Shown here piece by piece: positions 45,637 to 64,000 of a stretch of 64,000 bases of DNA. The stretch's first letter is position 1. Each line of letters opens with the position of its first letter. This stretch comes from Trypanosoma brucei (Eukaryota), in NCBI GenBank assembly GCA_000002445.1, contig CP000068.1, forward strand, positions 640,001-704,000. The letters are read 5' to 3'. Position numbers and translations under genes: made by a program. The notes beneath the pieces were generated by a model. It saw only the letters and a program-made list of their open reading frames with translations, had not been told where the DNA came from and ran no database searches.

Positions 45637-45720
45637 GGTGTGTGCCTGTACGAGTGCTAGATAAAAAGCTCTCAGTACTTGTCGTCTTGGCCCCCATGTA
45701 TAAACTGAGATGGCTGTTAT

Positions 45721-47394: not shown

Positions 47395-47460
47395 ATCAGG
47401 GGTGGACTCCCCGTGGTGGCGCGCGTACCTGGTGCACTCACCAGTGTTGCAGACCAGAAC

Positions 47461-48066
47461 CTAGTTGTCAATGCACCACTGTGTGAGGGTTTCATCCTTG
47501 GTATTTGATGGGCTCGCGCGATCCCATGCCAACGCGTGTGCGTTAGCGTCTGCACCGATGAGCTGGGCACTGTCAGTCGTCAGAAGCGTATCTAGGTCAG
47601 TTGCCGTGAAGGTGCGTTTTGGTGGGATGTATGCTGACGTGACGGTCAGCGCCGTTCCACGTGCAAGGTGAATTGTTGCATGCACTTGTTCAATGCGACC
47701 AACAACGGCCATACCGGTCTCGACTAGTAGGTCCTCCTTTACTAGTATTGGTACACCACCTTCTTTGCAGTTACGAGCTATTCCGTGATGTTGATAGCCA
47801 GCAACGCTAAAGCAAGCCGCCTCTCCAGGCGTCATCCTTGTCTCGCTCAACAGACAAAAGGCGATCCGCTCATCAACAAGGGTTTTGTGGAGTGCTAATC
47901 TCTTTCCTTGAGATAGCCCCGGCGCAGTTCCACTGCATCCCGCGCAACGACGGGCCGGGATTCTCTTCCACATCACCGGACAGCAGCATCTTACTGCGGA
48001 TGATACTGCTGATGGCACGCTGGCACGTGCCCAGGGGCCGACAAATGAAAAACGGTGTCCCAGCAA
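47461..48066 (-). pseudogene. L1Tc AP-endonuclease segment (interrupted)
   Basis: Sits immediately downstream of the 2A motif and upstream of the RT segment, i.e. where L1Tc carries its AP endonuclease. The ORF ends in an in-frame stop before the RT ORF. Confidence 0.6.
47951..47980 (-). other. 2A-like self-processing peptide motif (SGDVEENPGP) at N-terminus of L1Tc polyprotein
   Basis: Minus-strand translation gives ...KMLLSGDVEENPGPSLRG.... The canonical D(V/I)ExNPGP 2A motif sits upstream of the endonuclease, as in L1Tc. Confidence 0.75.
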
Positions 48067-48136
48067 GACGCTGCTGATCCCTGTGCTGTATGATGCCGTA
48101 GCCGGAGCAAAGCAGTGTTCCCCATGAAAGGAACGC

Positions 48137-48213
48137 CGCTGGCTCTTGGCTTCCCCCGATGATACGGGGTACTGGACCCTGGCACCACGTGGAGGTGGCC
48201 GGCATCGCCAGGG
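48137..48213 (-). promoter_or_regulatory. Pr77-like 5' hallmark of L1Tc/ingi elements (internal promoter / HDV-like ribozyme region in the literature)
   Basis: Reverse complement begins CCCTGGCGATGCCGGCCACCTCC...GTACCCCGTATCATCGGGGGAAGCCAAGAGCCAG, the conserved first 77 nt of L1Tc/NARTc/ingi. Confidence 0.7.
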
Positions 48214-48227
48214 GCATTGTGAGAATT
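48214..48227. repeat. Target-site duplication (right copy) of the L1Tc insertion
   Basis: gcattgtgagaatt immediately after ...ggcatcgccaggg (reverse complement of CCCTGGCGATGCC). Confidence 0.75.
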
Positions 48228-48610
48228 AATCCCACGCCACCACCCCTTGCTTGGAATGCGTCTCTTCAGGGTCCCTCGGCACGTTTTTTTTTTGTGGCGC
48301 CCCATTCCGTCGCGTTACTCAGTAAGTGGTGATATAACTGTAGTCACTTCAGATGCTTCCATGTAGCTGCGCGTTTTTCTTCGGTACTTTTTGGTTGGCA
48401 CGCTTATCTTCTGCCTGTTTCACTGCACTGCGAGAATCTGCGTGCTTTGTTGTAATTTTTGTACGCCACCCTCTGTCAATGCGATTGTTCCTAAAGTGTG
48501 GAGAGGCTTCGTTGCACGTGTGTCGTGCGAACGCTCAGTGCAACCACGCGCCTGAAAAGTCTTTCATGCTTCTAGACTTTGGTGATCCTATGCAGGGGGT
48601 TTGCTCCAGT

Positions 48611-50538: not shown

Positions 50539-51210
50539 GCTGTCAAAAGCATTCCATGTTATAATTTGTTTGCCGCGCTTGGTCTCGTGATGCTGAGTGA
50601 TTGTGCCTGTGTTTGTGGTTTCACCCCCTCTTGTCACGCCTTCCGCGGTTGGTGTGATTCCATTTGTGTTTGTTTCATGTGTTTTGTTTCCCTCACTACA
50701 TTGTGTGGTGAGGTTTGCTACTCTTATGATGAGTGCGCCTTGTGCCGCGTGCGTGTGTAGTGCTCATTTACCACTTGCTGCTTTCCCTTAACCTATTTCT
50801 GGATGAAAGAGACTTTACTCTTGTTTTTACCCACGTTCAAGCCGACACGGATAACAATGGCCACCTGCCCTAAACACCTGTTCGGGAAGTACCATCTAAA
50901 GAGTTTTAATGGCAAAAGCGCCTTGGAGGGCGAACTGGCCGGTGTGACACTGGAGCTTGGTGAAGAAGACGGTCGTGTCACAGTACGCGCGAAGGCGGGA
51001 AATGCGATGAGTGGTGTGTTGAAGTATGAAGGTGGGATGCTCACCGGTCCCTTGATGTCTACAATGATGATGCCTCCCCCTGCTGTCTTGAAAGTAGAAC
51101 GAACCCTCGTGTCCGGTTTTTCCAGCGGTATGCATGCGCTCCGTGAAGGCTCTTCTCTTACGCTTTCGCATAAGACAGACACGATGGTGTTTGAGGCCGT
51201 GGAGTAAACT
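50539..51210 (+). repeat. Truncated, diverged leading copy of the tandem-array unit (5' flank plus small-protein gene only)
   Basis: Alignable with 52026-52687, 56208-56869 and 60390-61051 from aagcattccatgttataatttgtttgccgcgcttggtctcgtgatgctgag through the stop of the small ORF. Flanks differ on both sides. Confidence 0.85.
50803..51207 (+). CDS. Small single-domain protein, diverged paralogue (array copy 0); candidate FABP/calycin-like beta-barrel domain
   Basis: Probable start at second Met (50857): MATCPKHLFGKYHLKSFNGKSALEGELAGV. About 116 aa from that Met. Differs from copies 1-3 in the C-terminal third (MSTMMMPPPAVLKVERTLVSGF vs ISTIMLSPPALMEVESAFSSGF). Confidence 0.6.
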   Translation: MKETLLLFLPTFKPTRITMATCPKHLFGKYHLKSFNGKSALEGELAGVTLELGEEDGRVTVRAKAGNAMSGVLKYEGGMLTGPLMSTMMMPPPAVLKVERTLVSGFSSGMHALREGSSLTLSHKTDTMVFEAVE

Positions 51211-52039
51211 TGTTTCTCGACATGCAGTTACCCTTTTATTTTCTACTTGTGTTGCCACTACACTTTCGTGTTTGTGGTCGGTGTTAGCGAACACTACCTT
51301 TGTTTACCACTTAGTGTTATGTTATTTATTTTTGAAATCGGGTTATTATTTTTATTTTTTTTTTCCAGGGTGTAGATATTTGAACCCTAATAAACGTCAA
51401 CGTTTTGTTAATTTATACGGGGGTACGTGTTTTTTTATTTGTTATCGAGGTATAGGCCTTCTGTCATGGTGACTACTGGACATTTTCGCTTCCTCTTTGC
51501 TGGATGCTCCCTGAATACTCAACGTAATAGTATGAAGAAAAGTGAGATGGTAGGCGGGGAATAAGTGTATGTAAGGAGTATATATTGTACGGACATCGGT
51601 AGTGGTGATGATGTTGAGATTCTCTCTCTTAAAGGTTATATCTTTGTATCAACTGATTCGGTACATAAGATCAGATTTTAAATACTATCTTCTATTTATT
51701 ATTTATTATGGAGTGTGATAATTAAAATGTAAGGGCAAATTATCTAACTGCTTATGATCAGTTGATTAGGTAGCGAGTAGTTTAGATAGTATCTTATATT
51801 TAGGAGGTGAGGTGTCCATCTGTAGTAATGGAAGAAATTGTTTGTAAGGATCGACGGCAGTGCAGATAAAACAAATATCGAAGTATATATATATGTATAG
51901 AAGTTTGGCTCAGCGACAGAGATACAATATTCTGCAAAAATAAGATATAAATATTTCATCATTACCCTACCATGCACAGATTATCGATGTGTATCCAACA
52001 AGGTGGGCGCGTGCGACTCCTTCAAGCATTCCATGTTAT

Positions 52040-52279
52040 AATTTGTTTGCCGCGCTTGGTCTCGTGATGCTGAGCGATTGTGCCTGTGTTTGTGGTTTCA
52101 CCCCCTCTTGTCACGCCTTCCGCGGTTGGTGTGATTCCATTTGTGTTTGTTTCATGTGTTTTGTTTCCCTCACTACATTGTGTGGTGAGGTTTGCTACTC
52201 TTATGATGAGTGCGCCTTGTGCCGCGTGCGTGTGTAGTGCTCATTTACCACTTGCTGCTTTCCCTTAACCTATTTCTGG
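52040..52279 (+). promoter_or_regulatory. GT/pyrimidine-rich upstream region of the small-protein gene (putative polypyrimidine tract / trans-splice acceptor zone)
   Basis: tgtgtttgtggtttcaccccctcttgtcacgccttccgcggttggtgtgattccatttgtgtttgtttcatgtgttttgtttccctcac directly upstream of the ORF in every unit. Trypanosomatid trans-splicing needs such tracts (established). The site itself is not mapped. Confidence 0.3.
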
Positions 52280-52684
52280 ATGAAAGAGACTTTACTCTTG
52301 TTTTTACCCACGTTCAAGCCGACACGGATAACAATGGCCACCTGCCCTAAACACCTGTTCGGGAAGTACCATCTAAAGAGTTTTAATGGCAAAAGCGCCT
52401 TGGAGGGCGAACTGGCCGGTGTGACACTGGAGCTTGGTGAAGAAGACGGTCGTGTCACAGTACGCGCGAAGGCGGGAAATGCGATGAATGGTGTGTTGAA
52501 GTATGAAGGTGGGATGCTCACCGGTCCCTTGATATCCACTATTATGCTCTCGCCCCCTGCTTTGATGGAGGTGGAGAGTGCTTTCAGTTCTGGATTTTCC
52601 AGCGGTATGCATGCGCTCCGTGAAGGCTCTTCTCTTACGCTTTCGCATAAGACAGACACGATGGTGTTTGAGGCCGTGGAGTAA
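52280..52684 (+). CDS. Small single-domain protein (array copy 1); candidate FABP/calycin-like domain
   Basis: Same gene as 56462..56866 with two aa differences (K/E, P/V). Probable start at MATCPKH (52334). Confidence 0.6.
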   Translation: MKETLLLFLPTFKPTRITMATCPKHLFGKYHLKSFNGKSALEGELAGVTLELGEEDGRVTVRAKAGNAMNGVLKYEGGMLTGPLISTIMLSPPALMEVESAFSSGFSSGMHALREGSSLTLSHKTDTMVFEAVE

Positions 52685-53110
52685 AGGTGACGGGCATACG
52701 TTAGTGTGTGTTTTGTTTATACGGTGATGTAAAAAATGACTTAAATTTTCATCTGTTTTTCGGTTATATTGTAGGTGCATATTCAACTTTCTCAATACCT
52801 AATGGCGGTACTATTAGTATTATTTTTTTTAAATACTTTCCTTGTTCACGAATATGTGATATCTACTGATTCGTATGAGCACTTTTGTTTTTTTATGCGT
52901 CTTCCTGTCTTCGCTAGCGTTTTGTTGTTGATGTATTTCTTGATTTGCTTTTCGTTTCTTTCTTTATGCTCTATACCTTTTTTTGCCTTTCCCTTGTATC
53001 CGCATATTCTCGTCCTCTGGTCTCTACTCCGCCATATTTATTCATGTAGTGCATGTAGTACTGGTTTGCATCCCGTGGAAACCTCTGCTTTTGTGTAGCA
53101 CCCGCGATTT

Positions 53111-54541
53111 ATGGCATCAGACAATGAGTCCACTGTCGAGGTGAGGGAGGCTCGTGACACCGAGGAGTACGATGCGCAGGCTGCTGCTCGTGGGCTGTGT
53201 GACAAGGCATGTGACATAAAGAGCCTTCTACATGGGCACGTTGAGTCGACGCGTGCCCTCGAAAGGGTTGTTGGGGAATTTTGCACTCGCGACATCGCTG
53301 AAGAGGATGCCTTCCGGAAAATCTCTCTCGACGTTATGCATGCCGAAATGCGGGCGCTACGGGACCTTCACTACGTTGCATTTTCCCAGCGGTGGGCAGA
53401 GGTAGAAAAGGGCTCCGCTGCAGAGGAGGTCACCAGCCTACCTTCAGCGGATAGGAGTGTTGGAAGTTGCGTGTCCCACCTTCTGACCTCGCTTTGTGAG
53501 GGAAAGCCTGATGCAACTTTTAGCCTTTCAGAGTATTTTGGTGTCGCTGACGTGCTTATGGAATGGCGCTCGTTAACTCCAGCATCACAGGAACAGTTGG
53601 ATATTCTTCTTCTGTCAATAACCAGGAGCGTGGAGGACATTTCATCATGTGTCCTGCTGCTGAATGGGGTTTTATATACACCATCTGATTCATTTGATTG
53701 TTGTGAACTCACTCGACGGGAGCTCACCGCGATAATTGGAAGTGGGGGACCCGCTTCCGCGGAAGAGGCACTTGTTGGATGGCTTAATTTTATTGTGAGA
53801 CGCTCGTTACTCAACCAGACCCTTCTCCAGAGGCTGATGAGTTCGACCATCGAGTTTCGGAGAAGTGATCTTTGCCTACAGGGCGACGGCGCAGACGTGC
53901 TGGTTGTAGTCGACCACAGGCGGTTGTTGAACTCCGCTGTCTTTCGTGGGTTTTTCTTTTCTGGGGAGTTGCGTGGTGTAGAGGCTATTGGGGCGCAGGT
54001 GAACTTGATGTCAGTATTATTTGCAGGCAACGGCAGCGGAGATCAGCTTGACATAGAGAAGTGTATCGCCGACATTTTCCGCGCTTTATGGGAGCAGCAG
54101 GAACTGCTTTCATGTAAGTGGAAGAACGTTACTGTGACCCTCGCTGTTCAAGCCAGGAAGGACGTCGGAGCCGGCGCTCAAACCAAGTTGATGGACTTCG
54201 TTGTGCTCGATCTTCGCCCCCTGTCGCCGAACATTCCTTTTCAGTGGCACTTTACATGGGGCGAGGTCTGTGCACTAGGCCAGCTCAGTACGAATGACGG
54301 AGATAGAGCACGACCCCTGGACATTCCTGTTTTCAAGACGACTCGTGTAGCTGTAGCCTCTCTGGGGCCTTATGATAAACTTTCACGCATAATGTTCCCT
54401 TCGATTAACGAGTATTTACGTCTTACGCGGAAAGAGCCACCATCTGTAGCCCCAGTCGCCTACGCTGCCGTCGCGGCGGCGCTTGTCGTCGGGGGATTTA
54501 TTGTTGGAAGCTGCATACTCGGTTCCCGGCGAAGACGATGA
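53111..54541 (+). CDS. 476-aa protein with single C-terminal transmembrane segment (tail-anchored-like), array copy 1
   Basis: No N-terminal signal peptide (MASDNESTVEVREARDTEEYD). Single hydrophobic segment AYAAVAAALVVGGFIVGSCILG, 5 residues from the end, followed by SRRRR-stop. Repeated at +4182 and +8364 with one substitution (T/A). Confidence 0.7.
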   Translation: MASDNESTVEVREARDTEEYDAQAAARGLCDKACDIKSLLHGHVESTRALERVVGEFCTRDIAEEDAFRKISLDVMHAEMRALRDLHYVAFSQRWAEVEKGSAAEEVTSLPSADRSVGSCVSHLLTSLCEGKPDATFSLSEYFGVADVLMEWRSLTPASQEQLDILLLSITRSVEDISSCVLLLNGVLYTPSDSFDCCELTRRELTAIIGSGGPASAEEALVGWLNFIVRRSLLNQTLLQRLMSSTIEFRRSDLCLQGDGADVLVVVDHRRLLNSAVFRGFFFSGELRGVEAIGAQVNLMSVLFAGNGSGDQLDIEKCIADIFRALWEQQELLSCKWKNVTVTLAVQARKDVGAGAQTKLMDFVVLDLRPLSPNIPFQWHFTWGEVCALGQLSTNDGDRARPLDIPVFKTTRVAVASLGPYDKLSRIMFPSINEYLRLTRKEPPSVAPVAYAAVAAALVVGGFIVGSCILGSRRRR

Positions 54542-54789
54542 GCAGTATCCGCCTCTGCTTTTTTCTGTTCATCTTGTTTTATTGACTTTAGAGCCATATT
54601 TAGGCTCCGCTATGCGTCCTTGTTGGTTAGAGGTTTAGTATTGTTGTACCTGACTCTGTGACTGATGGTGGGTGCCGCACCGTATCTGCGGCATGGGGTG
54701 CTTGCGTGAGTGAGGATCCACACTTATTTGACCGCTGTTTGCTATGAAATGTTTCCCTCCTTTCCTACTTGTAGCCAAGTTAATATTGC

Positions 54790-56130
54790 ATGATGGATAT
54801 TACTGCGTTGTGCGGAAACTATCGGTTGTGTGAGATTGACGGAAAGACGTGCTCCGAGGAAGTGTTTATTGCTCTAGAGGCGTCTGGTGGTGGTGTTGAG
54901 GTTGTTGCCATGGTGGGCAACACCCTGTGCGGGCGCGCTTGTGTGAATGGGGACAGGATTAGTGCGAACCTTACTAGCACTATGAGGCAGGTGGAAGAAG
55001 AGATGATGAGGATTGAAAGCCTGCTGACATGCGGGTTCAAGGCCGGGTTTACCTGTGAGCAGAGTGACATCATACTGACGCTGACTGGAGAGCAGAGTGT
55101 CTTCACATTGGAGCGTGATGTATTATGTGATATAAAGTTTGGTGAGTATACCCTCTGTGAGTTCAATGGGGAACCCGTGGCTTCGGACGAGATGGTGCTC
55201 ACCCTGCTCCCCGCTGTGGTAGATGGTGCCCTTGTGATTGCACAGTTCAAAAACTCTCTCCGCGGGGAGCTGGAGCTTCGCAATGGTCGTCTCCGCGGCG
55301 TTATTGCGTCGACGATGTGCGAGGTGGATGGTTCTTTGAAGTGCGCGGAGGAAGCGTTTTTGTCAGCTACCAGGGGTGATGGCATAAAAGTGTGCTCTGA
55401 CGACCACCGGCTTGTGCTTAAGGACGACCACAATGCGTTCGTTTATGTGCTGCGTCCAGCAATTCCAGAGAACCTTGTGAGCGAGTACTTACTGAAGAGC
55501 TTCAATGGCGAGTCTGTAGAGGCTGAGAGGCGTGTGATGTTCCGCTTTTCCCAATCAGCTGACGGTGTCGGTACGGATGTTGTGGCGAGTGTTGCCAATA
55601 CGATCAGGGGGAAGGTAAGAGTGGATGACGGAAAGTTAAAATCGAAGGTGATGTCATCACGAAGGAAAGGGAATGAGTCGGAGATGCGATTTGAGAATGC
55701 TCTGAAGGAAGGGTTCAAGGCTGGGTTTTCGTGGTCTCTGGACGACACGGTGCTGACTCTTGAGTGCGACGGGAACCGCCTCATCTTCGTGAAAGTTGCC
55801 GCTGTGCCGTGCGAAAATGGTAGGCCGGGGTATATTGGTGATAAGGTTTCAAGATGCTTTAAGGCCCACGACGATGCTCGAGTGTACCGTATCATCAACA
55901 CTGTGGAATCGAAGTGGGCATTTTACAATGACACGACCGAATACAATTTTAATGTGTCAGTGACTTTTGGGCGGAAATCAAAGGTACGCGGTCTGGCCAA
56001 CACGTCAATTGAGACAAATGAGGAAGGCTTGACGGTTGCCAGCGTGTCAGTCGCCCCTGGTGCGACGGAGATGTTCGTTGCTGGGGATGTAAACGGGTAC
56101 AAGTGCTCCTATGACGCAGTGCACCAGTAG
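54790..56130 (+). CDS. 446-aa multi-domain protein built from 3-4 repeats of the small-protein domain, array copy 1
   Basis: Internal repeats of about 110 aa, each beginning with a small-protein-like motif: residues 1- MMDITALCGNYRLCEIDGKTCSEEV, 118- GEYTLCEFNGEPVASDEMV, 231- SEYLLKSFNGESVEAERRV. GFKAGF recurs in repeats 1 and 3. Confidence 0.7.
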   Translation: MMDITALCGNYRLCEIDGKTCSEEVFIALEASGGGVEVVAMVGNTLCGRACVNGDRISANLTSTMRQVEEEMMRIESLLTCGFKAGFTCEQSDIILTLTGEQSVFTLERDVLCDIKFGEYTLCEFNGEPVASDEMVLTLLPAVVDGALVIAQFKNSLRGELELRNGRLRGVIASTMCEVDGSLKCAEEAFLSATRGDGIKVCSDDHRLVLKDDHNAFVYVLRPAIPENLVSEYLLKSFNGESVEAERRVMFRFSQSADGVGTDVVASVANTIRGKVRVDDGKLKSKVMSSRRKGNESEMRFENALKEGFKAGFSWSLDDTVLTLECDGNRLIFVKVAAVPCENGRPGYIGDKVSRCFKAHDDARVYRIINTVESKWAFYNDTTEYNFNVSVTFGRKSKVRGLANTSIETNEEGLTVASVSVAPGATEMFVAGDVNGYKCSYDAVHQ

Positions 56131-56461
56131 CCGACATTGCGTTGAGTGTTGATCCGGATGTAAGATACACATATGTATGCGGAGGTGGGCGCGTGCGACT
56201 CCTTCAAGCATTCCATGTTATAATTTGTTTGCCGCGCTTGGTCTCGTGATGCTGAGCGATTGTGCCTGTGTTTGTGGTTTCACCCCCTCTTGTCACGCCT
56301 TCCGCGGTTGGTGTGATTCCATTTGTGTTTGTTTCATGTGTTTTGTTTCCCTCACTACATTGTGTGGTGAGGTTTGCTACTCTTATGATGAGTGCGCCTT
56401 GTGCCGCGTGCGTGTGTAGTGCTCATTTACCACTTGCTGCTTTCCCTTAACCTATTTCTGG

Positions 56462-56866
56462 ATGAAAGAGACTTTACTCTTGTTTTTACCCACGTTCAAG
56501 CCGACACGGATAACAATGGCCACCTGCCCTAAACACCTGTTCGGGAAGTACCATCTAGAGAGTTTTAATGGCAAAAGCGCCTTGGAGGGCGAACTGGCCG
56601 GTGTGACACTGGAGCTTGGTGAAGAAGACGGTCGTGTCACAGTACGCGCGAAGGCGGGAAATGCGATGAATGGTGTGTTGAAGTATGAAGGTGGGATGCT
56701 CACCGGCGTCTTGATATCCACTATTATGCTCTCGCCCCCTGCTTTGATGGAGGTGGAGAGTGCTTTCAGTTCTGGATTTTCCAGCGGTATGCATGCGCTC
56801 CGTGAAGGCTCTTCTCTTACGCTTTCGCATAAGACAGACACGATGGTGTTTGAGGCCGTGGAGTAA
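56462..56866 (+). CDS. Small single-domain protein (array copy 2)
   Basis: Identical to copy 3. Confidence 0.6.
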   Translation: MKETLLLFLPTFKPTRITMATCPKHLFGKYHLESFNGKSALEGELAGVTLELGEEDGRVTVRAKAGNAMNGVLKYEGGMLTGVLISTIMLSPPALMEVESAFSSGFSSGMHALREGSSLTLSHKTDTMVFEAVE

Positions 56867-57292
56867 AGGTGACGGGCATACGTTAGTGTGTGTTTTGTTT
56901 ATACGGTGATGTAAAAAATGACTTAAATTTTCATCTGTTTTTCGGTAATATTGTAGGTGCATATTCAACTCTTTGAATTTCTAATGGCGGTACTATTAGT
57001 ATTATTTTTTTTAAATACTTTCCTTGTTCACGAATATGTGATATCTACTGATTCGTATGAGCACTTTTGTTTTTTTATGCGTCTTCCTGTCTTCGCTAGC
57101 GTTTTGTTGTTGATGTATTTCTTGATTTGCTTTTCGTTTCTTTCTTTATGCTCTATACCTTTTTTTGCCTTTCCCTTGTATCCGCATATTCTCGTCCTCT
57201 GGTCTCTACTCCGCCATATTTATTCATGTAGTGCATGTAGTACTGGTTTGCATCCCGTGGAAACCTCTGCTTTTGTGTAGCACCCGCGATTT

Positions 57293-58723
57293 ATGGCATC
57301 AGACAATGAGTCCACTGTCGAGGTGAGGGAGGCTCGTGACACCGAGGAGTACGATGCGCAGGCTGCTGCTCGTGGGCTGTGTGACAAGGCATGTGACATA
57401 AAGAGCCTTCTACATGGGCACGTTGAGTCGACGCGTGCCCTCGAAAGGGTTGTTGGGGAATTTTGCACTCGCGACATCGCTGAAGAGGATGCCTTCCGGA
57501 AAATCTCTCTCGACGTTATGCATGCCGAAATGCGGGCGCTACGGGACCTTCACTACGTTGCATTTTCCCAGCGGTGGGCAGAGGTAGAAAAGGGCTCCGC
57601 TGCAGAGGAGGTCACCAGCCTACCTTCAGCGGATAGGAGTGTTGGAAGTTGCGTGTCCCACCTTCTGGCCTCGCTTTGTGAGGGAAAGCCTGATGCAACT
57701 TTTAGCCTTTCAGAGTATTTTGGTGTCGCTGACGTGCTTATGGAATGGCGCTCGTTAACTCCAGCATCACAGGAACAGTTGGATATTCTTCTTCTGTCAA
57801 TAACCAGGAGCGTGGAGGACATTTCATCATGTGTCCTGCTGCTGAATGGGGTTTTATATACACCATCTGATTCATTTGATTGTTGTGAACTCACTCGACG
57901 GGAGCTCACCGCGATAATTGGAAGTGGGGGACCCGCTTCCGCGGAAGAGGCACTTGTTGGATGGCTTAATTTTATTGTGAGACGCTCGTTACTCAACCAG
58001 ACCCTTCTCCAGAGGCTGATGAGTTCGACCATCGAGTTTCGGAGAAGTGATCTTTGCCTACAGGGCGACGGCGCAGACGTGCTGGTTGTAGTCGACCACA
58101 GGCGGTTGTTGAACTCCGCTGTCTTTCGTGGGTTTTTCTTTTCTGGGGAGTTGCGTGGTGTAGAGGCTATTGGGGCGCAGGTGAACTTGATGTCAGTATT
58201 ATTTGCAGGCAACGGCAGCGGAGATCAGCTTGACATAGAGAAGTGTATCGCCGACATTTTCCGCGCTTTATGGGAGCAGCAGGAACTGCTTTCATGTAAG
58301 TGGAAGAACGTTACTGTGACCCTCGCTGTTCAAGCCAGGAAGGACGTCGGAGCCGGCGCTCAAACCAAGTTGATGGACTTCGTTGTGCTCGATCTTCGCC
58401 CCCTGTCGCCGAACATTCCTTTTCAGTGGCACTTTACATGGGGCGAGGTCTGTGCACTAGGCCAGCTCAGTACGAATGACGGAGATAGAGCACGACCCCT
58501 GGACATTCCTGTTTTCAAGACGACTCGTGTAGCTGTAGCCTCTCTGGGGCCTTATGATAAACTTTCACGCATAATGTTCCCTTCGATTAACGAGTATTTA
58601 CGTCTTACGCGGAAAGAGCCACCATCTGTAGCCCCAGTCGCCTACGCTGCCGTCGCGGCGGCGCTTGTCGTCGGGGGATTTATTGTTGGAAGCTGCATAC
58701 TCGGTTCCCGGCGAAGACGATGA
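57293..58723 (+). CDS. 476-aa tail-anchored-like membrane protein, array copy 2
   Basis: Identical to copy 3. One aa differs from copy 1. Confidence 0.7.
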   Translation: MASDNESTVEVREARDTEEYDAQAAARGLCDKACDIKSLLHGHVESTRALERVVGEFCTRDIAEEDAFRKISLDVMHAEMRALRDLHYVAFSQRWAEVEKGSAAEEVTSLPSADRSVGSCVSHLLASLCEGKPDATFSLSEYFGVADVLMEWRSLTPASQEQLDILLLSITRSVEDISSCVLLLNGVLYTPSDSFDCCELTRRELTAIIGSGGPASAEEALVGWLNFIVRRSLLNQTLLQRLMSSTIEFRRSDLCLQGDGADVLVVVDHRRLLNSAVFRGFFFSGELRGVEAIGAQVNLMSVLFAGNGSGDQLDIEKCIADIFRALWEQQELLSCKWKNVTVTLAVQARKDVGAGAQTKLMDFVVLDLRPLSPNIPFQWHFTWGEVCALGQLSTNDGDRARPLDIPVFKTTRVAVASLGPYDKLSRIMFPSINEYLRLTRKEPPSVAPVAYAAVAAALVVGGFIVGSCILGSRRRR

Positions 58724-58971
58724 GCAGTATCCGCCTCTGCTTTTTTCTGTTCATCTTGTTTTATTGACTTTAGAGCCATATTTAGGCTCCGCTATGCGTC
58801 CTTGTTGGTTAGAGGTTTAGTATTGTTGTACCTGACTCTGTGACTGATGGTGGGTGCCGCACCGTATCTGCGGCATGGGGTGCTTGCGTGAGTGAGGATC
58901 CACACTTATTTGACCGCTGTTTGCTATGAAATGTTTCCCTCCTTTCCTACTTGTAGCCAAGTTAATATTGC

Positions 58972-60312
58972 ATGATGGATATTACTGCGTTGTGCGGAAA
59001 CTATCGGTTGTGTGAGATTGACGGAAAGACGTGCTCCGAGGAAGTGTTTATTGCTCTAGAGGCGTCTGGTGGTGGTGTTGAGGTTGTTGCCATGGTGGGC
59101 AACACCCTGTGCGGGCGCGCTTGTGTGAATGGGGACAGGATTAGTGCGAACCTTACTAGCACTATGAGGCAGGTGGAAGAAGAGATGATGAGGATTGAAA
59201 GCCTGCTGACATGCGGGTTCAAGGCCGGGTTTACCTGTGAGCAGAGTGACATCATACTGACGCTGACTGGAGAGCAGAGTGTCTTCACATTGGAGCGTGA
59301 TGTATTATGTGATATAAAGTTTGGTGAGTATACCCTCTGTGAGTTCAATGGGGAACCCGTGGCTTCGGACGAGATGGTGCTCACCCTGCTCCCCGCTGTG
59401 GTAGATGGTGCCCTTGTGATTGCACAGTTCAAAAACTCTCTCCGCGGGGAGCTGGAGCTTCGCAATGGTCGTCTCCGCGGCGTTATTGCGTCGACGATGT
59501 GCGAGGTGGATGGTTCTTTGAAGTGCGCGGAGGAAGCGTTTTTGTCAGCTACCAGGGGTGATGGCATAAAAGTGTGCTCTGACGACCACCGGCTTGTGCT
59601 TAAGGACGACCACAATGCGTTCGTTTATGTGCTGCGTCCAGCAATTCCAGAGAACCTTGTGAGCGAGTACTTACTGAAGAGCTTCAATGGCGAGTCTGTA
59701 GAGGCTGAGAGGCGTGTGATGTTCCGCTTTTCCCAATCAGCTGACGGTGTCGGTACGGATGTTGTGGCGAGTGTTGCCAATACGATCAGGGGGAAGGTAA
59801 GAGTGGATGACGGAAAGTTAAAATCGAAGGTGATGTCATCACGAAGGAAAGGGAATGAGTCGGAGATGCGATTTGAGAATGCTCTGAAGGAAGGGTTCAA
59901 GGCTGGGTTTTCGTGGTCTCTGGACGACACGGTGCTGACTCTTGAGTGCGACGGGAACCGCCTCATCTTCGTGAAAGTTGCCGCTGTGCCGTGCGAAAAT
60001 GGTAGGCCGGGGTATATTGGTGATAAGGTTTCAAGATGCTTTAAGGCCCACGACGATGCTCGAGTGTACCGTATCATCAACACTGTGGAATCGAAGTGGG
60101 CATTTTACAATGACACGACCGAATACAATTTTAATGTGTCAGTGACTTTTGGGCGGAAATCAAAGGTACGCGGTCTGGCCAACACGTCAATTGAGACAAA
60201 TGAGGAAGGCTTGACGGTTGCCAGCGTGTCAGTCGCCCCTGGTGCGACGGAGATGTTCGTTGCTGGGGATGTAAACGGGTACAAGTGCTCCTATGACGCA
60301 GTGCACCAGTAG
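58972..60312 (+). CDS. 446-aa multi-domain protein, array copy 2
   Basis: Identical translation to copy 1. Confidence 0.7.
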   Translation: MMDITALCGNYRLCEIDGKTCSEEVFIALEASGGGVEVVAMVGNTLCGRACVNGDRISANLTSTMRQVEEEMMRIESLLTCGFKAGFTCEQSDIILTLTGEQSVFTLERDVLCDIKFGEYTLCEFNGEPVASDEMVLTLLPAVVDGALVIAQFKNSLRGELELRNGRLRGVIASTMCEVDGSLKCAEEAFLSATRGDGIKVCSDDHRLVLKDDHNAFVYVLRPAIPENLVSEYLLKSFNGESVEAERRVMFRFSQSADGVGTDVVASVANTIRGKVRVDDGKLKSKVMSSRRKGNESEMRFENALKEGFKAGFSWSLDDTVLTLECDGNRLIFVKVAAVPCENGRPGYIGDKVSRCFKAHDDARVYRIINTVESKWAFYNDTTEYNFNVSVTFGRKSKVRGLANTSIETNEEGLTVASVSVAPGATEMFVAGDVNGYKCSYDAVHQ

Positions 60313-60643
60313 CCGACATTGCGTTGAGTGTTGATCCGGATGTAAGATACACATATGTATGCGGAGGTGGGCGCGTGCGACTCCTTCAAGCATTCCATGT
60401 TATAATTTGTTTGCCGCGCTTGGTCTCGTGATGCTGAGCGATTGTGCCTGTGTTTGTGGTTTCACCCCCTCTTGTCACGCCTTCCGCGGTTGGTGTGATT
60501 CCATTTGTGTTTGTTTCATGTGTTTTGTTTCCCTCACTACATTGTGTGGTGAGGTTTGCTACTCTTATGATGAGTGCGCCTTGTGCCGCGTGCGTGTGTA
60601 GTGCTCATTTACCACTTGCTGCTTTCCCTTAACCTATTTCTGG

Positions 60644-61048
60644 ATGAAAGAGACTTTACTCTTGTTTTTACCCACGTTCAAGCCGACACGGATAACAATG
60701 GCCACCTGCCCTAAACACCTGTTCGGGAAGTACCATCTAGAGAGTTTTAATGGCAAAAGCGCCTTGGAGGGCGAACTGGCCGGTGTGACACTGGAGCTTG
60801 GTGAAGAAGACGGTCGTGTCACAGTACGCGCGAAGGCGGGAAATGCGATGAATGGTGTGTTGAAGTATGAAGGTGGGATGCTCACCGGCGTCTTGATATC
60901 CACTATTATGCTCTCGCCCCCTGCTTTGATGGAGGTGGAGAGTGCTTTCAGTTCTGGATTTTCCAGCGGTATGCATGCGCTCCGTGAAGGCTCTTCTCTT
61001 ACGCTTTCGCATAAGACAGACACGATGGTGTTTGAGGCCGTGGAGTAA
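60644..61048 (+). CDS. Small single-domain protein (array copy 3)
   Basis: Identical to copy 2. Confidence 0.6.
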   Translation: MKETLLLFLPTFKPTRITMATCPKHLFGKYHLESFNGKSALEGELAGVTLELGEEDGRVTVRAKAGNAMNGVLKYEGGMLTGVLISTIMLSPPALMEVESAFSSGFSSGMHALREGSSLTLSHKTDTMVFEAVE

Positions 61049-61474
61049 AGGTGACGGGCATACGTTAGTGTGTGTTTTGTTTATACGGTGATGTAAAAAA
61101 TGACTTAAATTTTCATCTGTTTTTCGGTAATATTGTAGGTGCATATTCAACTCTTTGAATTTCTAATGGCGGTACTATTAGTATTATTTTTTTTAAATAC
61201 TTTCCTTGTTCACGAATATGTGATATCTACTGATTCGTATGAGCACTTTTGTTTTTTTATGCGTCTTCCTGTCTTCGCTAGCGTTTTGTTGTTGATGTAT
61301 TTCTTGATTTGCTTTTCGTTTCTTTCTTTATGCTCTATACCTTTTTTTGCCTTTCCCTTGTATCCGCATATTCTCGTCCTCTGGTCTCTACTCCGCCATA
61401 TTTATTCATGTAGTGCATGTAGTACTGGTTTGCATCCCGTGGAAACCTCTGCTTTTGTGTAGCACCCGCGATTT

Positions 61475-62905
61475 ATGGCATCAGACAATGAGTCCACTGT
61501 CGAGGTGAGGGAGGCTCGTGACACCGAGGAGTACGATGCGCAGGCTGCTGCTCGTGGGCTGTGTGACAAGGCATGTGACATAAAGAGCCTTCTACATGGG
61601 CACGTTGAGTCGACGCGTGCCCTCGAAAGGGTTGTTGGGGAATTTTGCACTCGCGACATCGCTGAAGAGGATGCCTTCCGGAAAATCTCTCTCGACGTTA
61701 TGCATGCCGAAATGCGGGCGCTACGGGACCTTCACTACGTTGCATTTTCCCAGCGGTGGGCAGAGGTAGAAAAGGGCTCCGCTGCAGAGGAGGTCACCAG
61801 CCTACCTTCAGCGGATAGGAGTGTTGGAAGTTGCGTGTCCCACCTTCTGGCCTCGCTTTGTGAGGGAAAGCCTGATGCAACTTTTAGCCTTTCAGAGTAT
61901 TTTGGTGTCGCTGACGTGCTTATGGAATGGCGCTCGTTAACTCCAGCATCACAGGAACAGTTGGATATTCTTCTTCTGTCAATAACCAGGAGCGTGGAGG
62001 ACATTTCATCATGTGTCCTGCTGCTGAATGGGGTTTTATATACACCATCTGATTCATTTGATTGTTGTGAACTCACTCGACGGGAGCTCACCGCGATAAT
62101 TGGAAGTGGGGGACCCGCTTCCGCGGAAGAGGCACTTGTTGGATGGCTTAATTTTATTGTGAGACGCTCGTTACTCAACCAGACCCTTCTCCAGAGGCTG
62201 ATGAGTTCGACCATCGAGTTTCGGAGAAGTGATCTTTGCCTACAGGGCGACGGCGCAGACGTGCTGGTTGTAGTCGACCACAGGCGGTTGTTGAACTCCG
62301 CTGTCTTTCGTGGGTTTTTCTTTTCTGGGGAGTTGCGTGGTGTAGAGGCTATTGGGGCGCAGGTGAACTTGATGTCAGTATTATTTGCAGGCAACGGCAG
62401 CGGAGATCAGCTTGACATAGAGAAGTGTATCGCCGACATTTTCCGCGCTTTATGGGAGCAGCAGGAACTGCTTTCATGTAAGTGGAAGAACGTTACTGTG
62501 ACCCTCGCTGTTCAAGCCAGGAAGGACGTCGGAGCCGGCGCTCAAACCAAGTTGATGGACTTCGTTGTGCTCGATCTTCGCCCCCTGTCGCCGAACATTC
62601 CTTTTCAGTGGCACTTTACATGGGGCGAGGTCTGTGCACTAGGCCAGCTCAGTACGAATGACGGAGATAGAGCACGACCCCTGGACATTCCTGTTTTCAA
62701 GACGACTCGTGTAGCTGTAGCCTCTCTGGGGCCTTATGATAAACTTTCACGCATAATGTTCCCTTCGATTAACGAGTATTTACGTCTTACGCGGAAAGAG
62801 CCACCATCTGTAGCCCCAGTCGCCTACGCTGCCGTCGCGGCGGCGCTTGTCGTCGGGGGATTTATTGTTGGAAGCTGCATACTCGGTTCCCGGCGAAGAC
62901 GATGA
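61475..62905 (+). CDS. 476-aa tail-anchored-like membrane protein, array copy 3
   Basis: Identical to copy 2. Confidence 0.7.
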   Translation: MASDNESTVEVREARDTEEYDAQAAARGLCDKACDIKSLLHGHVESTRALERVVGEFCTRDIAEEDAFRKISLDVMHAEMRALRDLHYVAFSQRWAEVEKGSAAEEVTSLPSADRSVGSCVSHLLASLCEGKPDATFSLSEYFGVADVLMEWRSLTPASQEQLDILLLSITRSVEDISSCVLLLNGVLYTPSDSFDCCELTRRELTAIIGSGGPASAEEALVGWLNFIVRRSLLNQTLLQRLMSSTIEFRRSDLCLQGDGADVLVVVDHRRLLNSAVFRGFFFSGELRGVEAIGAQVNLMSVLFAGNGSGDQLDIEKCIADIFRALWEQQELLSCKWKNVTVTLAVQARKDVGAGAQTKLMDFVVLDLRPLSPNIPFQWHFTWGEVCALGQLSTNDGDRARPLDIPVFKTTRVAVASLGPYDKLSRIMFPSINEYLRLTRKEPPSVAPVAYAAVAAALVVGGFIVGSCILGSRRRR

Positions 62906-63153
62906 GCAGTATCCGCCTCTGCTTTTTTCTGTTCATCTTGTTTTATTGACTTTAGAGCCATATTTAGGCTCCGCTATGCGTCCTTGTTGGTTAGAGGTTT
63001 AGTATTGTTGTACCTGACTCTGTGACTGATGGTGGGTGCCGCACCGTATCTGCGGCATGGGGTGCTTGCGTGAGTGAGGATCCACACTTATTTGACCGCT
63101 GTTTGCTATGAAATGTTTCCCTCCTTTCCTACTTGTAGCCAAGTTAATATTGC

Positions 63154-64000
63154 ATGATGGATATTACTGCGTTGTGCGGAAACTATCGGTTGTGTGAGAT
63201 TGACGGAAAGACGTGCTCCGAGGAAGTGTTTATTGCTCTAGAGGCGTCTGGTGGTGGTGTTGAGGTTGTTGCCATGGTGGGCAACACCCTGTGCGGGCGC
63301 GCTTGTGTGAATGGGGACAGGATTAGTGCGAACCTTACTAGCACTATGAGGCAGGTGGAAGAAGAGATGATGAGGATTGAAAGCCTGCTGACATGCGGGT
63401 TCAAGGCCGGGTTTACCTGTGAGCAGAGTGACATCATACTGACGCTGACTGGAGAGCAGAGTGTCTTCACATTGGAGCGTGATGTATTATGTGATATAAA
63501 GTTTGGTGAGTATACCCTCTGTGAGTTCAATGGGGAACCCGTGGCTTCGGACGAGATGGTGCTCACCCTGCTCCCCGCTGTGGTAGATGGTGCCCTTGTG
63601 ATTGCACAGTTCAAAAACTCTCTCCGCGGGGAGCTGGAGCTTCGCAATGGTCGTCTCCGCGGCGTTATTGCGTCGACGATGTGCGAGGTGGATGGTTCTT
63701 TGAAGTGCGCGGAGGAAGCGTTTTTGTCAGCTACCAGGGGTGATGGCATAAAAGTGTGCTCTGACGACCACCGGCTTGTGCTTAAGGACGACCACAATGC
63801 GTTCGTTTATGTGCTGCGTCCAGCAATTCCAGAGAACCTTGTGAGCGAGTACTTACTGAAGAGCTTCAATGGCGAGTCTGTAGAGGCTGAGAGGCGTGTG
63901 ATGTTCCGCTTTTCCCAATCAGCTGACGGTGTCGGTACGGATGTTGTGGCGAGTGTTGCCAATACGATCAGGGGGAAGGTAAGAGTGGATGACGGAAAGT
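63154..64000 (+). CDS. 446-aa multi-domain protein, array copy 3 (3'-truncated by window end)
   Basis: ATG at 63154 = 58972 + 4182. Translation identical as far as the window extends. Confidence 0.65.
   Translation, partial: MMDITALCGNYRLCEIDGKTCSEEVFIALEASGGGVEVVAMVGNTLCGRACVNGDRISANLTSTMRQVEEEMMRIESLLTCGFKAGFTCEQSDIILTLTGEQSVFTLERDVLCDIKFGEYTLCEFNGEPVASDEMVLTLLPAVVDGALVIAQFKNSLRGELELRNGRLRGVIASTMCEVDGSLKCAEEAFLSATRGDGIKVCSDDHRLVLKDDHNAFVYVLRPAIPENLVSEYLLKSFNGESVEAERRVMFRFSQSADGVGTDVVASVANTIRGKVRVDDGK

What the first reader, a model, noticed from the sequence alone, without database searches (positions are those of the whole stretch)
53111..54541. 476-aa cassette protein has tail-anchored topology (no signal peptide, single TM 5 residues from the C-terminus, RRRR stop)
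The only hydrophobic segment is AYAAVAAALVVGGFIVGSCILG, followed by SRRRR. This is unlike typical T. cruzi GPI-anchor signals, which end in a hydrophobic tail, and points instead to a tail-anchored membrane protein with a large cytosolic N-terminal domain. The protein is co-amplified with the putative ligand-binding domain proteins.
Basis: seen in the sequence. Interest (0 to 1): 0.6.

Follow-up and report, generated by a model that had tools for sequence, protein, structure and literature searches.

The report
Tail-anchored mitochondrial Cdc123-like protein
The 476-residue protein repeated three times in this Trypanosoma brucei array really is tail-anchored, public tagging data place it on the mitochondrion, and its large exposed domain is a highly diverged, probably non-catalytic relative of the translation-factor assembly chaperone Cdc123, which I did not find described in the papers I could search.

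Summary
ORF 53111-54541 (+) encodes 476 aa with one hydrophobic segment (aa 449-471) followed by SRRRR-stop. The N-terminus is acidic, and an in-frame stop lies four codons upstream of the ATG. The organism is T. brucei TREU927 chromosome 5, not T. cruzi; the genes are Tb927.5.2180/2210/2240.

The tail-anchor layout is conserved in all Trypanosoma orthologues and in about 34 of 43 full-length representatives of a family that includes Leishmania, Novymonas and Phytomonas.

The N-terminally tagged protein is "mitochondrion". The C-terminally tagged protein, whose tail is masked, gives only faint endocytic/reticulated signal. That is the signature of a C-terminal targeting signal, most likely for the outer membrane.

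The co-amplified neighbours are META-domain genes. The block is single-copy in T. theileri.

The parts
53111..54541 (+). Copy 1 of the 476-aa tail-anchored protein (Tb927.5.2180; XP_844892)
   Evidence: ORF list; exact-sequence look-up to T. b. brucei TREU927 and T. equiperdum; gene ID from PMC7952579 and the TrypTag primers.
57293..58723 (+). Copy 2 (Tb927.5.2210)
   Evidence: ORF list; 1 nt / 1 aa (T126A) different from copy 1.
61475..62905 (+). Copy 3 (Tb927.5.2240)
   Evidence: ORF list; identical to copy 2.
53111..53173 (+). Acidic, disordered N-terminus (aa 1-21); not a signal peptide or presequence
   Evidence: 8 D/E against 3 K/R in the first 30 aa; pLDDT below 50 for aa 1-16.
53174..53419 (+). 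Long N-terminal alpha-helix (aa 22-103) carrying the invariant F57-x-x-R60-[DE]61-x-x-E64 motif
   Evidence: DSSP on model m30c252c54bbb, pLDDT 82-94 for aa 21-80; column conservation R/K60 36/36 and E64 36/36.
53456..54433 (+). Cdc123-like ATP-grasp domain (aa ~116-441), including FRGFFF (R279), the strand with invariant E291, VVLDLRPLSP (D367/R369) and FTWGEVC (W383/C387)
54455..54523 (+). Single transmembrane segment VAYAAVAAALVVGGFIVGSCILG (aa 449-471)
   Evidence: Only strongly hydrophobic window; terminal helix 448-474 in the model; position conserved in orthologues.
54524..54541 (+). Five-residue basic tail SRRRR plus TGA stop
   Evidence: Translation; a basic tail is conserved across the family.
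52948..53057 (+). Pyrimidine tracts followed by AG dinucleotides: probable trans-splice acceptor region for the 476-aa gene
   Evidence: Sequence scan. The assignment is an inference from general trypanosomatid mRNA processing and no SL-RNA-seq data were examined.
52024..56205 (+). Cassette unit 1 (4,182 bp): small META gene, 476-aa gene, META2 gene
   Evidence: Direct repeats with 4,182-bp spacing; periodicity starts at about 52,000; 11 mismatches to unit 2.
56206..60387 (+). Cassette unit 2
60388..64000 (+). Cassette unit 3 (cut by the window end); identical to unit 2 over 3,613 nt
52280..52684 (+). Small single-META-domain gene (134-aa ORF; Tb927.5.2170). Paralogues at 50803-51207, 56462-56866 and 60644-61048
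   Evidence: Pfam META E 1.7e-15; translations; IDs from PMC7952579.
54790..56130 (+). META2-type gene (446 aa; META repeats plus DUF1935; Tb927.5.2190). Copies at 58972-60312 and 63154 to the window end
   Evidence: Pfam META 3.3e-27 and DUF1935 4.2e-34.

Best explanation
Tb927.5.2180/2210/2240 encode a tail-anchored protein of the mitochondrion, most likely of the outer membrane with the N-terminus in the cytosol. After translation, the only hydrophobic segment (aa 449-471) is inserted into the membrane. It is flanked by basic residues and ends in SRRRR, and it leaves about 445 residues exposed. The exposed part is an acidic disordered tip, a helix of about 80 residues, and a globular domain held close to the membrane. 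That domain is a very diverged homologue of Cdc123, the ATP-grasp protein that assembles translation initiation factor eIF2. The residues that bind ATP and Mg2+ in Cdc123 and other ATP-grasp enzymes are replaced, while a different set of polar residues is invariant. I therefore infer that the domain works as a membrane-tethered binding or assembly module for an unidentified client, not as a classical ATP-dependent ligase. Shown here: the topology features, their conservation, the mitochondrial localisation and its dependence on a free C-terminus (from a public tagging screen), and the fold relationship. Inferred: outer rather than inner membrane, orientation, loss of catalysis, and the chaperone-like role. 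The gene belongs to an ancestral syntenic block with META-domain genes at the start of a polycistron. T. brucei has triplicated that block, so dosage is raised, but a functional link with the META proteins is not shown.
Against: Sub-mitochondrial location and orientation were not measured, because TrypTag annotates only 'mitochondrion'. N-terminal tagging replaces the 5' UTR and can change expression. The digitonin pellet also contains ER and glycosomes. The gene was not found in the stored parts of the ImportOmics supplements, although those files may be truncated. Sequence-level support for Cdc123 homology is modest: hhalign probability is 46-61% with a thin CDC123 profile, there is no Pfam D123 hit at E up to 1, and the profile search of PDB sequences found nothing. 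The N-terminal half of the ATP-grasp module could not be aligned by sequence, and I had no model coordinates, so the claim that the phosphate-binding lysines are lost is provisional. R/K153 or R/K60 could compensate. R279, E291 and D367 sit at or next to canonical active-site positions, which leaves room for retained nucleotide binding. A subgroup of homologues (P0027, P0030, P0036, P0038, P0040, P0042) lacks the terminal TMD.
Confidence: 0.7

Rival explanations
1. The exposed Cdc123-like domain is an active enzyme (ATPase or ATP-dependent peptide/amide ligase) with a re-tooled active site, in which Arg/Lys residues from elsewhere (R/K153, R/K60, R369) replace the canonical lysines and the Mg2+-binding Asn.
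For: R279 (the R of the ExR motif) is present in 35 of 36 members, E291 is invariant on the neighbouring strand, and D367 (the D of DxN) is kept in 26 of 36. So the cleft positions are under constraint. Burroughs et al. document compensatory relocation of catalytic residues within the R2K clade, such as a second K/R in place of the linker lysine and ExGD in place of ExN (PMC4431377). CDC123 itself is an ATPase (PMC12860950). An invariant Cys (C387) could be catalytic.
Against: Four of the five canonical positions are not conserved: E177, D233, N248, and K104/R111. D367 is itself replaced by H, G, S, N or Y in 10 of 36 members.
Confidence: 0.3
2. [quoted passage not shown]
For: A very basic tail (+4) is typical of peroxisomal tail-anchored proteins in mammalian cells (general knowledge, not tested here). 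TbMsp1 shows that dual outer-membrane and glycosome localisation occurs in T. brucei, and the 'crude mitochondrial' fraction in which the protein was detected also contains glycosomes.
Against: TrypTag annotates the N-terminal tag as 'mitochondrion' only, and 'glycosome' is an available annotation term. The gene was not found in the glycosomal membrane inventory supplements, but that paper uses Tb427 identifiers, so this negative result is weak.
Confidence: 0.1
3. It is an ER or endocytic-pathway membrane protein, and the mitochondrial signal of the N-terminal tag is an artefact.
For: Both C-terminally tagged lines (Tb927.5.2180 and Tb927.5.2240) were annotated 'endocytic, cytoplasm[reticulated]'.
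Against: Both C-terminal signals are flagged 'fainter than parental' and 'classified as faint', so they are near background. A C-terminal fusion converts the 5-residue tail into a large lumenal domain and masks a tail-anchor signal. The Ala/Gly-rich TMD flanked by basic residues matches the outer-membrane-type signal described for T. brucei.
Confidence: 0.05
4. It is a GPI-anchored or otherwise secreted surface protein, and the C-terminal hydrophobic segment is a GPI-addition signal.
For: There is a hydrophobic segment near the C-terminus, and the gene sits in a tandem array, as many trypanosome surface-protein genes do.
Against: There is no N-terminal signal peptide: the N-terminus is acidic, the maximum 9-residue hydropathy is 0.62, and an in-frame stop lies upstream. 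The hydrophobic segment is followed by RRRR rather than ending the protein. The body is a Cdc123-like fold of a cytosolic type. The N-terminal tag localises to the mitochondrion.
Confidence: 0.02
5. It is anchored in the mitochondrial inner membrane, or faces the intermembrane space, rather than facing the cytosol from the outer membrane.
For: TrypTag does not resolve sub-mitochondrial compartments. The gene was not seen in the outer-membrane-related supplements I could search.
Against: There is no presequence and the N-terminus is acidic. A 27-kDa fluorescent protein on the N-terminus still reaches the mitochondrion. A terminal TMD plus basic tail is the outer-membrane tail-anchor signature. 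Cdc123-type domains are otherwise cytosolic.
Confidence: 0.07

Closest known systems
Cdc123 / D123 (R2K.1 ATP-grasp family; eIF2 assembly chaperone; PDB 4ZGN-4ZGQ, 8PHD)
   Different: No Pfam D123 match and only about 13-16% identity. The canonical E177, D233 and N248, and most probably K104/R111, are substituted. It has an N-terminal helix of about 80 residues and a C-terminal membrane anchor that Cdc123 lacks. It is mitochondrial rather than cytosolic. It is restricted to trypanosomatids and unnamed relatives, which per PMC4431377 also possess a canonical CDC123. Binding to eIF2-gamma is untested.
Tail-anchored mitochondrial outer-membrane proteins of T. brucei (as summarised in PMC12316301, citing Pyrih et al. 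2023) and of opisthokonts (for example Fis1 and OMP25, from general knowledge)
   Same: No N-terminal signal, a single moderately hydrophobic Ala/Gly/Val-rich TMD at the extreme C-terminus, basic residues on both sides, and a very short basic tail. Localisation depends on a free C-terminus.
   Different: The cargo domain is a Cdc123-like ATP-grasp fold, which is not known for any described tail-anchored outer-membrane protein in the literature I could search. I could not check whether it is already listed in the Pyrih 2023 or Niemann 2013 inventories, because those papers are not held.
Toxoplasma gondii Elp3 and RlmN (tail-anchored radical-SAM enzymes on the mitochondrial surface; PMC5749711, seen by title and abstract only)
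   Same: Conceptual analogue: in a parasitic protist, a member of a normally soluble enzyme family is tethered to the mitochondrial outer surface by a C-terminal TMD.
   Different: The fold and chemistry are unrelated. Those enzymes retain their catalytic motifs, whereas this protein appears to have lost the canonical ones.
Trypanosomal PEX15 (Tb927.10.1860), a tail-anchored glycosomal protein identified through structure rather than sequence (bioRxiv 10.1101/2023.10.13.562043)
   Same: A kinetoplastid tail-anchored 'hypothetical protein' whose identity is visible only at the fold level.
   Different: A different organelle (glycosome), a different fold (helical bundle binding PEX6), and a different function.

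Membership tests
Tail-anchored (TA) membrane proteins | No N-terminal signal peptide or presequence | tested here: met
   The N-terminus is acidic (8 D/E against 3 K/R in 30 aa). The maximum 9-residue hydropathy in the first 70 aa is 0.62. An in-frame stop lies four codons upstream. Orthologues are likewise acidic. This is a heuristic test, because SignalP and TargetP were not available.
Tail-anchored (TA) membrane proteins | Single TMD close to the C-terminus with a short (under about 30 aa) tail | tested here: met
   The TMD is aa 449-471 and the tail is 5 aa. This is the only hydrophobic window. The layout is conserved in about 34 of 43 representatives.
Tail-anchored (TA) membrane proteins | Post-translational insertion with the N-terminal domain in the cytosol | not testable with these tools
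   Indirect support only: localisation is lost when the C-terminus is tagged and kept when the N-terminus is tagged.
Mitochondrial outer-membrane TA proteins (T. brucei type) | C-terminal TMD followed by several basic residues | tested here: met
   SRRRR follows the TMD and RLTRK precedes it. The criterion is as worded in PMC12316301.
Mitochondrial outer-membrane TA proteins (T. brucei type) | Mitochondrial localisation in vivo | tested here: met
   In TrypTag Table S3 the N-terminal tag of Tb927.5.2180 is 'mitochondrion' and not faint. This is a public dataset read here, not a new experiment.
Mitochondrial outer-membrane TA proteins (T. brucei type) | Outer-membrane residence (protease accessible, carbonate resistant; present in the OM proteome; pATOM36 dependence) | not tested
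   The Niemann 2013 and Pyrih 2023 papers are not held. The protein is detected in the crude mitochondrial fraction only.
GPI-anchored surface proteins | N-terminal signal peptide plus a C-terminal hydrophobic signal that ends the protein, with an upstream omega site | tested here: not met
   There is no signal-peptide-like N-terminus, and the hydrophobic segment is followed by RRRR. NetGPI and PredGPI were not available.
CDC123 / R2K.1 ATP-grasp family | ATP-grasp fold with Cdc123 as closest structural relative | tested here: met
CDC123 / R2K.1 ATP-grasp family | Match to the Pfam D123 (PF07065) profile, or sequence-detectable homology | tested here: not met
   No D123 hit at E up to 1 for any of 36 members. 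The profile search against PDB sequences found nothing. Only profile-profile comparison finds it, at E 8.3e-5 and probability 61%.
CDC123 / R2K.1 ATP-grasp family | Absolutely conserved Lys in RAGNYA strand 2 (human K104) plus a second K/R in the following loop (R111): the '2K' signature in PKLNWSxP[KR]DA | tested here: inconclusive
   The motif is absent. Under the secondary-structure-guided alignment (N185-G186 matched to N106-W107), K104 corresponds to F/L/C/A/V and R111 to a variable position. Under hhalign's weak alternative alignment there is no conserved K/R either. R/K153 is the only conserved basic residue in aa 116-262.
CDC123 / R2K.1 ATP-grasp family | [quoted passage not shown] | tested here: inconclusive
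   R279 is conserved in 35 of 36. The E position is L/V/P/M/T/I and never acidic. The motif is half met.
CDC123 / R2K.1 ATP-grasp family | Acidic residue in the fourth strand (human D233) | tested here: not met
   The equivalent column (Tb T343) is T18, I4, L3, V3, S3 and others, with no D or E.
CDC123 / R2K.1 ATP-grasp family | [DE]xN Mg2+-binding motif at the end of the last strand (human D246, N248) | tested here: not met
   D367 is D in 26 of 36. The N248-equivalent column is R19, H5, Q4, A3 and others, with Asn in 0 of 36.
CDC123 / R2K.1 ATP-grasp family | Binds eIF2-gamma domain III and promotes eIF2 alpha-gamma assembly | not testable with these tools
   No interaction data are available. 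Kinetoplastids have a separate canonical CDC123 according to PMC4431377.

The most novel reading that the evidence does not exclude
Trypanosomatids possess a second, lineage-specific Cdc123 paralogue that has been moved to the mitochondrial surface and has exchanged its ATP/Mg2+ site for a new invariant constellation (R60, E64, R153, R279, E291, C387, K409, D422). On this reading it acts there as a dedicated assembly chaperone or receptor for a G-protein-like or translation-related client, in other words as a lineage-specific link between the cytosolic translation and assembly machinery and the highly diverged trypanosome outer membrane. It might work together with the META-domain proteins with which it has stayed syntenic and is co-amplified.
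Probability: 0.15. Interest if true: 0.7.

Novelty: new variant of a known kind. Interest (0 to 1): 0.45.

Why it matters
Cdc123 is known as a soluble, universally conserved eukaryotic factor with one job, which is assembling eIF2. A membrane-tethered paralogue with a remodelled catalytic site, conserved across trypanosomatids and sitting on the mitochondrion, would be the first example of this fold being reused at an organelle surface. It would also give a name and a testable hypothesis to a 'hypothetical protein, conserved'. T. brucei keeps that gene in three nearly identical copies next to the stage-regulated META genes. The trypanosome outer membrane has import and biogenesis machinery (ATOM, pATOM36) unrelated to that of yeast and humans, so lineage-specific outer-membrane proteins are candidates for missing functions. 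If instead the protein is a passive, degenerate relic, the finding remains a tidy annotation upgrade of modest importance.

Tried and rejected
1. Sequence-only annotation gave nothing. Pfam returned only a sub-threshold Thiaminase_I-like_N hit for the T. brucei protein and scattered single-member noise for the other 35. The family profile against PDB sequences gave only chance hits (IgG, surfactant protein B).

2. The word-indexed homology search with the broad alignment added almost no new named relatives. Names came instead from exact cluster look-ups.

3. The last word-indexed search, meant to fetch diverse CDC123s including the trypanosome one, listed only vertebrates. The CDC123 profile therefore stayed thin and the hhalign probability stayed at 61%.

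4. The N-terminal (RAGNYA) halves could not be aligned by restricted hhalign (E 0.28). Model coordinates are not exposed in the sandbox, so no residue-level superposition on 8PHD-ATP was possible.

5. The afdb50 fold library was unavailable.

6. Localisation datasets that gave nothing decisive:
- The glycosome membrane inventory returned no hit, but it uses Tb427 IDs.
- The stored hyperLOPIT files returned only the orthology table.
- The ImportOmics supplements returned no hit.
- The Msp1 SILAC-IP showed the protein detected but not enriched (ratio 0.33).
- Niemann 2013 and Pyrih 2023 are not held.

7. I considered and rejected a GPI anchor, a secretory signal and an upstream start codon.

8. 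I considered whether the META neighbours imply a functional module. Synteny holds in T. theileri and in a fused EukProt gene model (P0032), but not around the distant homologue P0066. Conserved gene order is the norm in trypanosomatid polycistrons, so I do not claim a functional link.

9. There are no tRNA genes in the window.
Full report
**1. What is in the sequence**

The ORF at 53111-54541 (+) exists and encodes 476 aa. It is one of three copies; the others are at 57293-58723 and 61475-62905. Copy 1 differs from the other two by a single nucleotide (T126A), and copies 2 and 3 are identical.

The copies lie in a 4,182-bp tandem cassette that begins at about 52,000. Units 1 and 2 differ at 11 positions. 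Units 2 and 3 are identical over the 3,613 nt that fit in the window.

Each unit carries three genes:
- a small single-META-domain gene (134-aa ORF);
- the 476-aa gene;
- a 446-aa gene with META repeats plus DUF1935.

An extra small META gene sits upstream at 50803-51207.

**2. Organism and gene identity**

The protein is identical to XP_844892 of T. brucei brucei TREU927 and 99% identical to T. b. gambiense.

PMC7952579 and the TrypTag primer table identify the genes as Tb927.5.2180/2210/2240, annotated "hypothetical protein, conserved". [quoted passage not shown] The window agrees with this. Genes up to about 48 kb are on the minus strand (Myb, IMPDH/GMPR-type, kinesin, DBR1-like, UPF1), and the array is on the plus strand.

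**3. Check of the observation**

Only one 19-residue window is strongly hydrophobic: aa 452-470, with a Kyte-Doolittle mean of 2.41 and a Hessa sum of -0.38. The runner-up scores 1.47 with a Hessa sum of +7.3.

The segment VAYAAVAAALVVGGFIVGSCILG (aa 449-471) is preceded by RLTRKEPP and followed by SRRRR and a stop.

The N-terminus (MASDNESTVEVREARDTEEYD...) has 8 acidic and 3 basic residues in the first 30 and no hydrophobic core. An in-frame stop lies four codons upstream of the ATG. Pyrimidine tracts followed by AG lie 55-160 nt upstream.

I could not run SignalP, DeepTMHMM or NetGPI, so this remains a hydropathy and charge argument.

**4. Conservation of the layout**

All eight Trypanosoma orthologues (44-54% identity) keep a terminal hydrophobic stretch with a basic tail, although the TMD sequence itself drifts.

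A profile search of 1.84 billion cluster representatives found 46 relatives. Of 43 full-length ones, about 34 end in a single TMD followed by a tail of up to about 20 residues (mostly 2-12) with net charge mostly +2 to +5. Their N-termini are acidic.

Named members are Leishmania major, L. infantum and L. donovani (chromosome 17), Novymonas and Phytomonas. The rest are unnamed assemblies.

A subgroup (P0027, P0030, P0036, P0038, P0040, P0042) stops just before the linker and TMD. I could not tell whether this is real or a gene-calling artefact.

**5. Localisation**

TrypTag Table S3 (PMC9981465) lists the following for Tb927.5.2180:
- C-terminal tag: "endocytic[weak], cytoplasm[weak, reticulated]", fainter than parental = y, classified as faint = y.

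Tb927.5.2240 tagged at the C-terminus gives "endocytic, cytoplasm[reticulated]", also faint. The primer sequences confirm which tag is which and that the same ATG was used.

A fluorescent protein on the N-terminus would block a presequence, yet the fusion reaches the mitochondrion. A fusion on the C-terminus abolishes the mitochondrial localisation. This is what a C-terminal tail-anchor signal predicts.

The protein group is detected by mass spectrometry (18.9% coverage) in digitonin "crude mitochondrial" fractions of procyclic cells. There it is background, not a TbMsp1 partner.

Outer-membrane residence and N-out orientation are my inference. The two papers that could settle it (Niemann 2013, Pyrih 2023) are not in the library.

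**6. What the large domain is**

No Pfam or PDB-sequence match exists for any of 36 family members.

By eye, FRGFFFSGELRGVE and FVVLDLRPLSPNIPFQWHFTWGEVC resembled the EFRCFV and WLIDFNPF...LLFTWEEL motifs of CDC123. I treated that as a lead and tested it four ways.

(c) Second algorithm. Foldseek against the PDB returned only Cdc123 chains (fission yeast and human) in its top ten, at E 1.2e-6 to 5.8e-5 and probability 1.00. The next hits were Ddl at E 2.6e-3 or worse.

(d) Profile-profile comparison. After confirming my recalled human CDC123 sequence against PDB 8phd_A, hhalign aligned Tb 225-425 to human 113-303 with exactly the predicted motif pairing. The E-value was 2e-4 with a 2-sequence profile and 8.3e-5 (probability 61%) with 9 sequences.

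I conclude that the exposed domain is a very diverged Cdc123-like ATP-grasp domain. It is preceded by a helix of about 80 residues (aa 22-103) and joined to the TMD by a short linker.

**7. Is it an enzyme?**

Burroughs et al. (PMC4431377) define the clade by five features:
- a strand-2 lysine (human K104);
- a second K/R in the next loop (R111, which contacts the ATP beta/gamma phosphates according to PMC12860950);
- ExR (E177, R179);
- an acidic residue (D233);
- DxN (D246, N248).

Using the hhalign register, the family shows the following:
- R179 corresponds to R279, conserved in 35 of 36.
- E177 corresponds to hydrophobic residues.
- D233 corresponds to T/I/L/V/S and is never acidic.
- D246 corresponds to D367, which is D in 26 of 36.
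- N248 corresponds to R/H/Q, with Asn in 0 of 36.

The N-terminal half cannot be aligned with statistical support. Under both candidate registers there is no conserved K/R at the K104 or R111 positions, and R/K153 is the only conserved basic residue in aa 116-262.

The family also has its own invariant set: R/K60, D/E61, E64, W152, R/K153, N185, G186, R279, E291, P373, W383, C387, K/R409 and D422.

My reading is that the classical ATP/Mg2+ chemistry is probably lost while a binding site is maintained. I give this roughly 55-60% and a re-tooled active enzyme about 30%.

**8. Genomic context**

In T. theileri the same block occurs once: META (105 aa), then a 503-aa orthologue, then META2 (443 aa), then META (122 aa). 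It sits immediately after a divergent strand switch that has UPF1 on the other side, as in this window.

An orthology table lists 3 T. brucei genes against 1 each in T. congolense, T. vivax and T. cruzi. The T. brucei array is therefore a lineage-specific triplication, homogenised to near identity.

One EukProt gene model fuses a META2-like protein to a homologue (P0032), which shows the same adjacency elsewhere. The distant homologue P0066 has no META neighbours.

In the ZC3H45 RNAi line, several genes of the array fall together: Tb927.5.2190, 2220, 2230, 2240 and 2250.

Conserved order is normal in trypanosomatid polycistrons, so I do not infer a functional complex from it.

**9. Novelty and verdict**

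The tail-anchored topology is correct and conserved. The mitochondrial localisation already sits in a public screen, so that part is confirmation.

The Cdc123-like identity of the domain, its degenerate catalytic positions, and the pan-trypanosomatid tail-anchored family were not found in the searchable literature. I could not check the Pyrih 2023 inventory.

I class it as a new variant of a known kind: a membrane-tethered, remodelled Cdc123 paralogue. It is of moderate interest.

Noticed in passing
window 43223-48305 (- strand): A run of broken ORFs with reverse transcriptase (45721-47394, RVT_1 E 5.6e-46) and RNase H (44098-45636) domains, plus an upstream ORF. It looks like a degenerate non-LTR (ingi-type) retrotransposon. 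It sits in the divergent strand-switch region between the UPF1-side polycistron and the META array. The equivalent interval in T. theileri (L002) has no such element.
   Followed up: partly
window 52024-64000: Cassette units 2 and 3 are 100% identical over 3,613 nt. Unit 1 differs at only 11 positions, 10 of them clustered at 52376-52798 (within the small META gene and just downstream of it). This pattern suggests recent duplication or ongoing gene conversion with a boundary near 52.8 kb.
   Followed up: partly
window 50803-51207 vs 52280-52684: The first small META gene (Tb927.5.2160) has a diverged segment (…MSTMMMPPPAVLKVERTLV… against …ISTIMLSPPALMEVESAF…) inside an otherwise identical protein. 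The ORF is 134 aa from the first ATG, whereas the literature quotes 116 aa, so the annotated start is probably the internal Met19.
   Followed up: no
P0032 (EukProt gene11096-7723_t): A 984-aa gene model fuses a META2-like protein to a homologue of the 476-aa protein, and it lacks the terminal TMD. It is probably a merged gene call across adjacent genes. It shows META2-to-homologue adjacency in another, unnamed species.
   Followed up: no
P0027, P0030, P0036, P0038, P0040, P0042: A subgroup of homologues (26-28% identical to T. brucei) ends right after the conserved …FPxxNxL… motif, without linker, TMD or basic tail. This could be a soluble subfamily or truncated gene calls, for example from species with reassigned stop codons.
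   Followed up: no
hyperLOPIT orthology table (PMC10361982, supplementary file 13): The T. cruzi CL Brener orthologue (TcCLB.511315.44) is annotated as a pseudogenic transcript, yet an intact 486-aa T. cruzi-like sequence (P0005) exists in the protein collection.
   Followed up: no
window 1-64000: Cumulative GC skew falls steadily to a minimum at about 44-46 kb and then rises, and AT skew changes sign in the same place. This mirrors the switch from minus-strand to plus-strand coding at the divergent strand-switch region.
   Followed up: no
window 53371-54030, 57553-58212, 61735-62394 (- strand): A 219-aa antisense ORF lies inside each copy of the 476-aa gene, and a 204-aa antisense ORF lies inside each META2 gene. 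They are most likely by-products of codon composition. No homology test was run.
   Followed up: no
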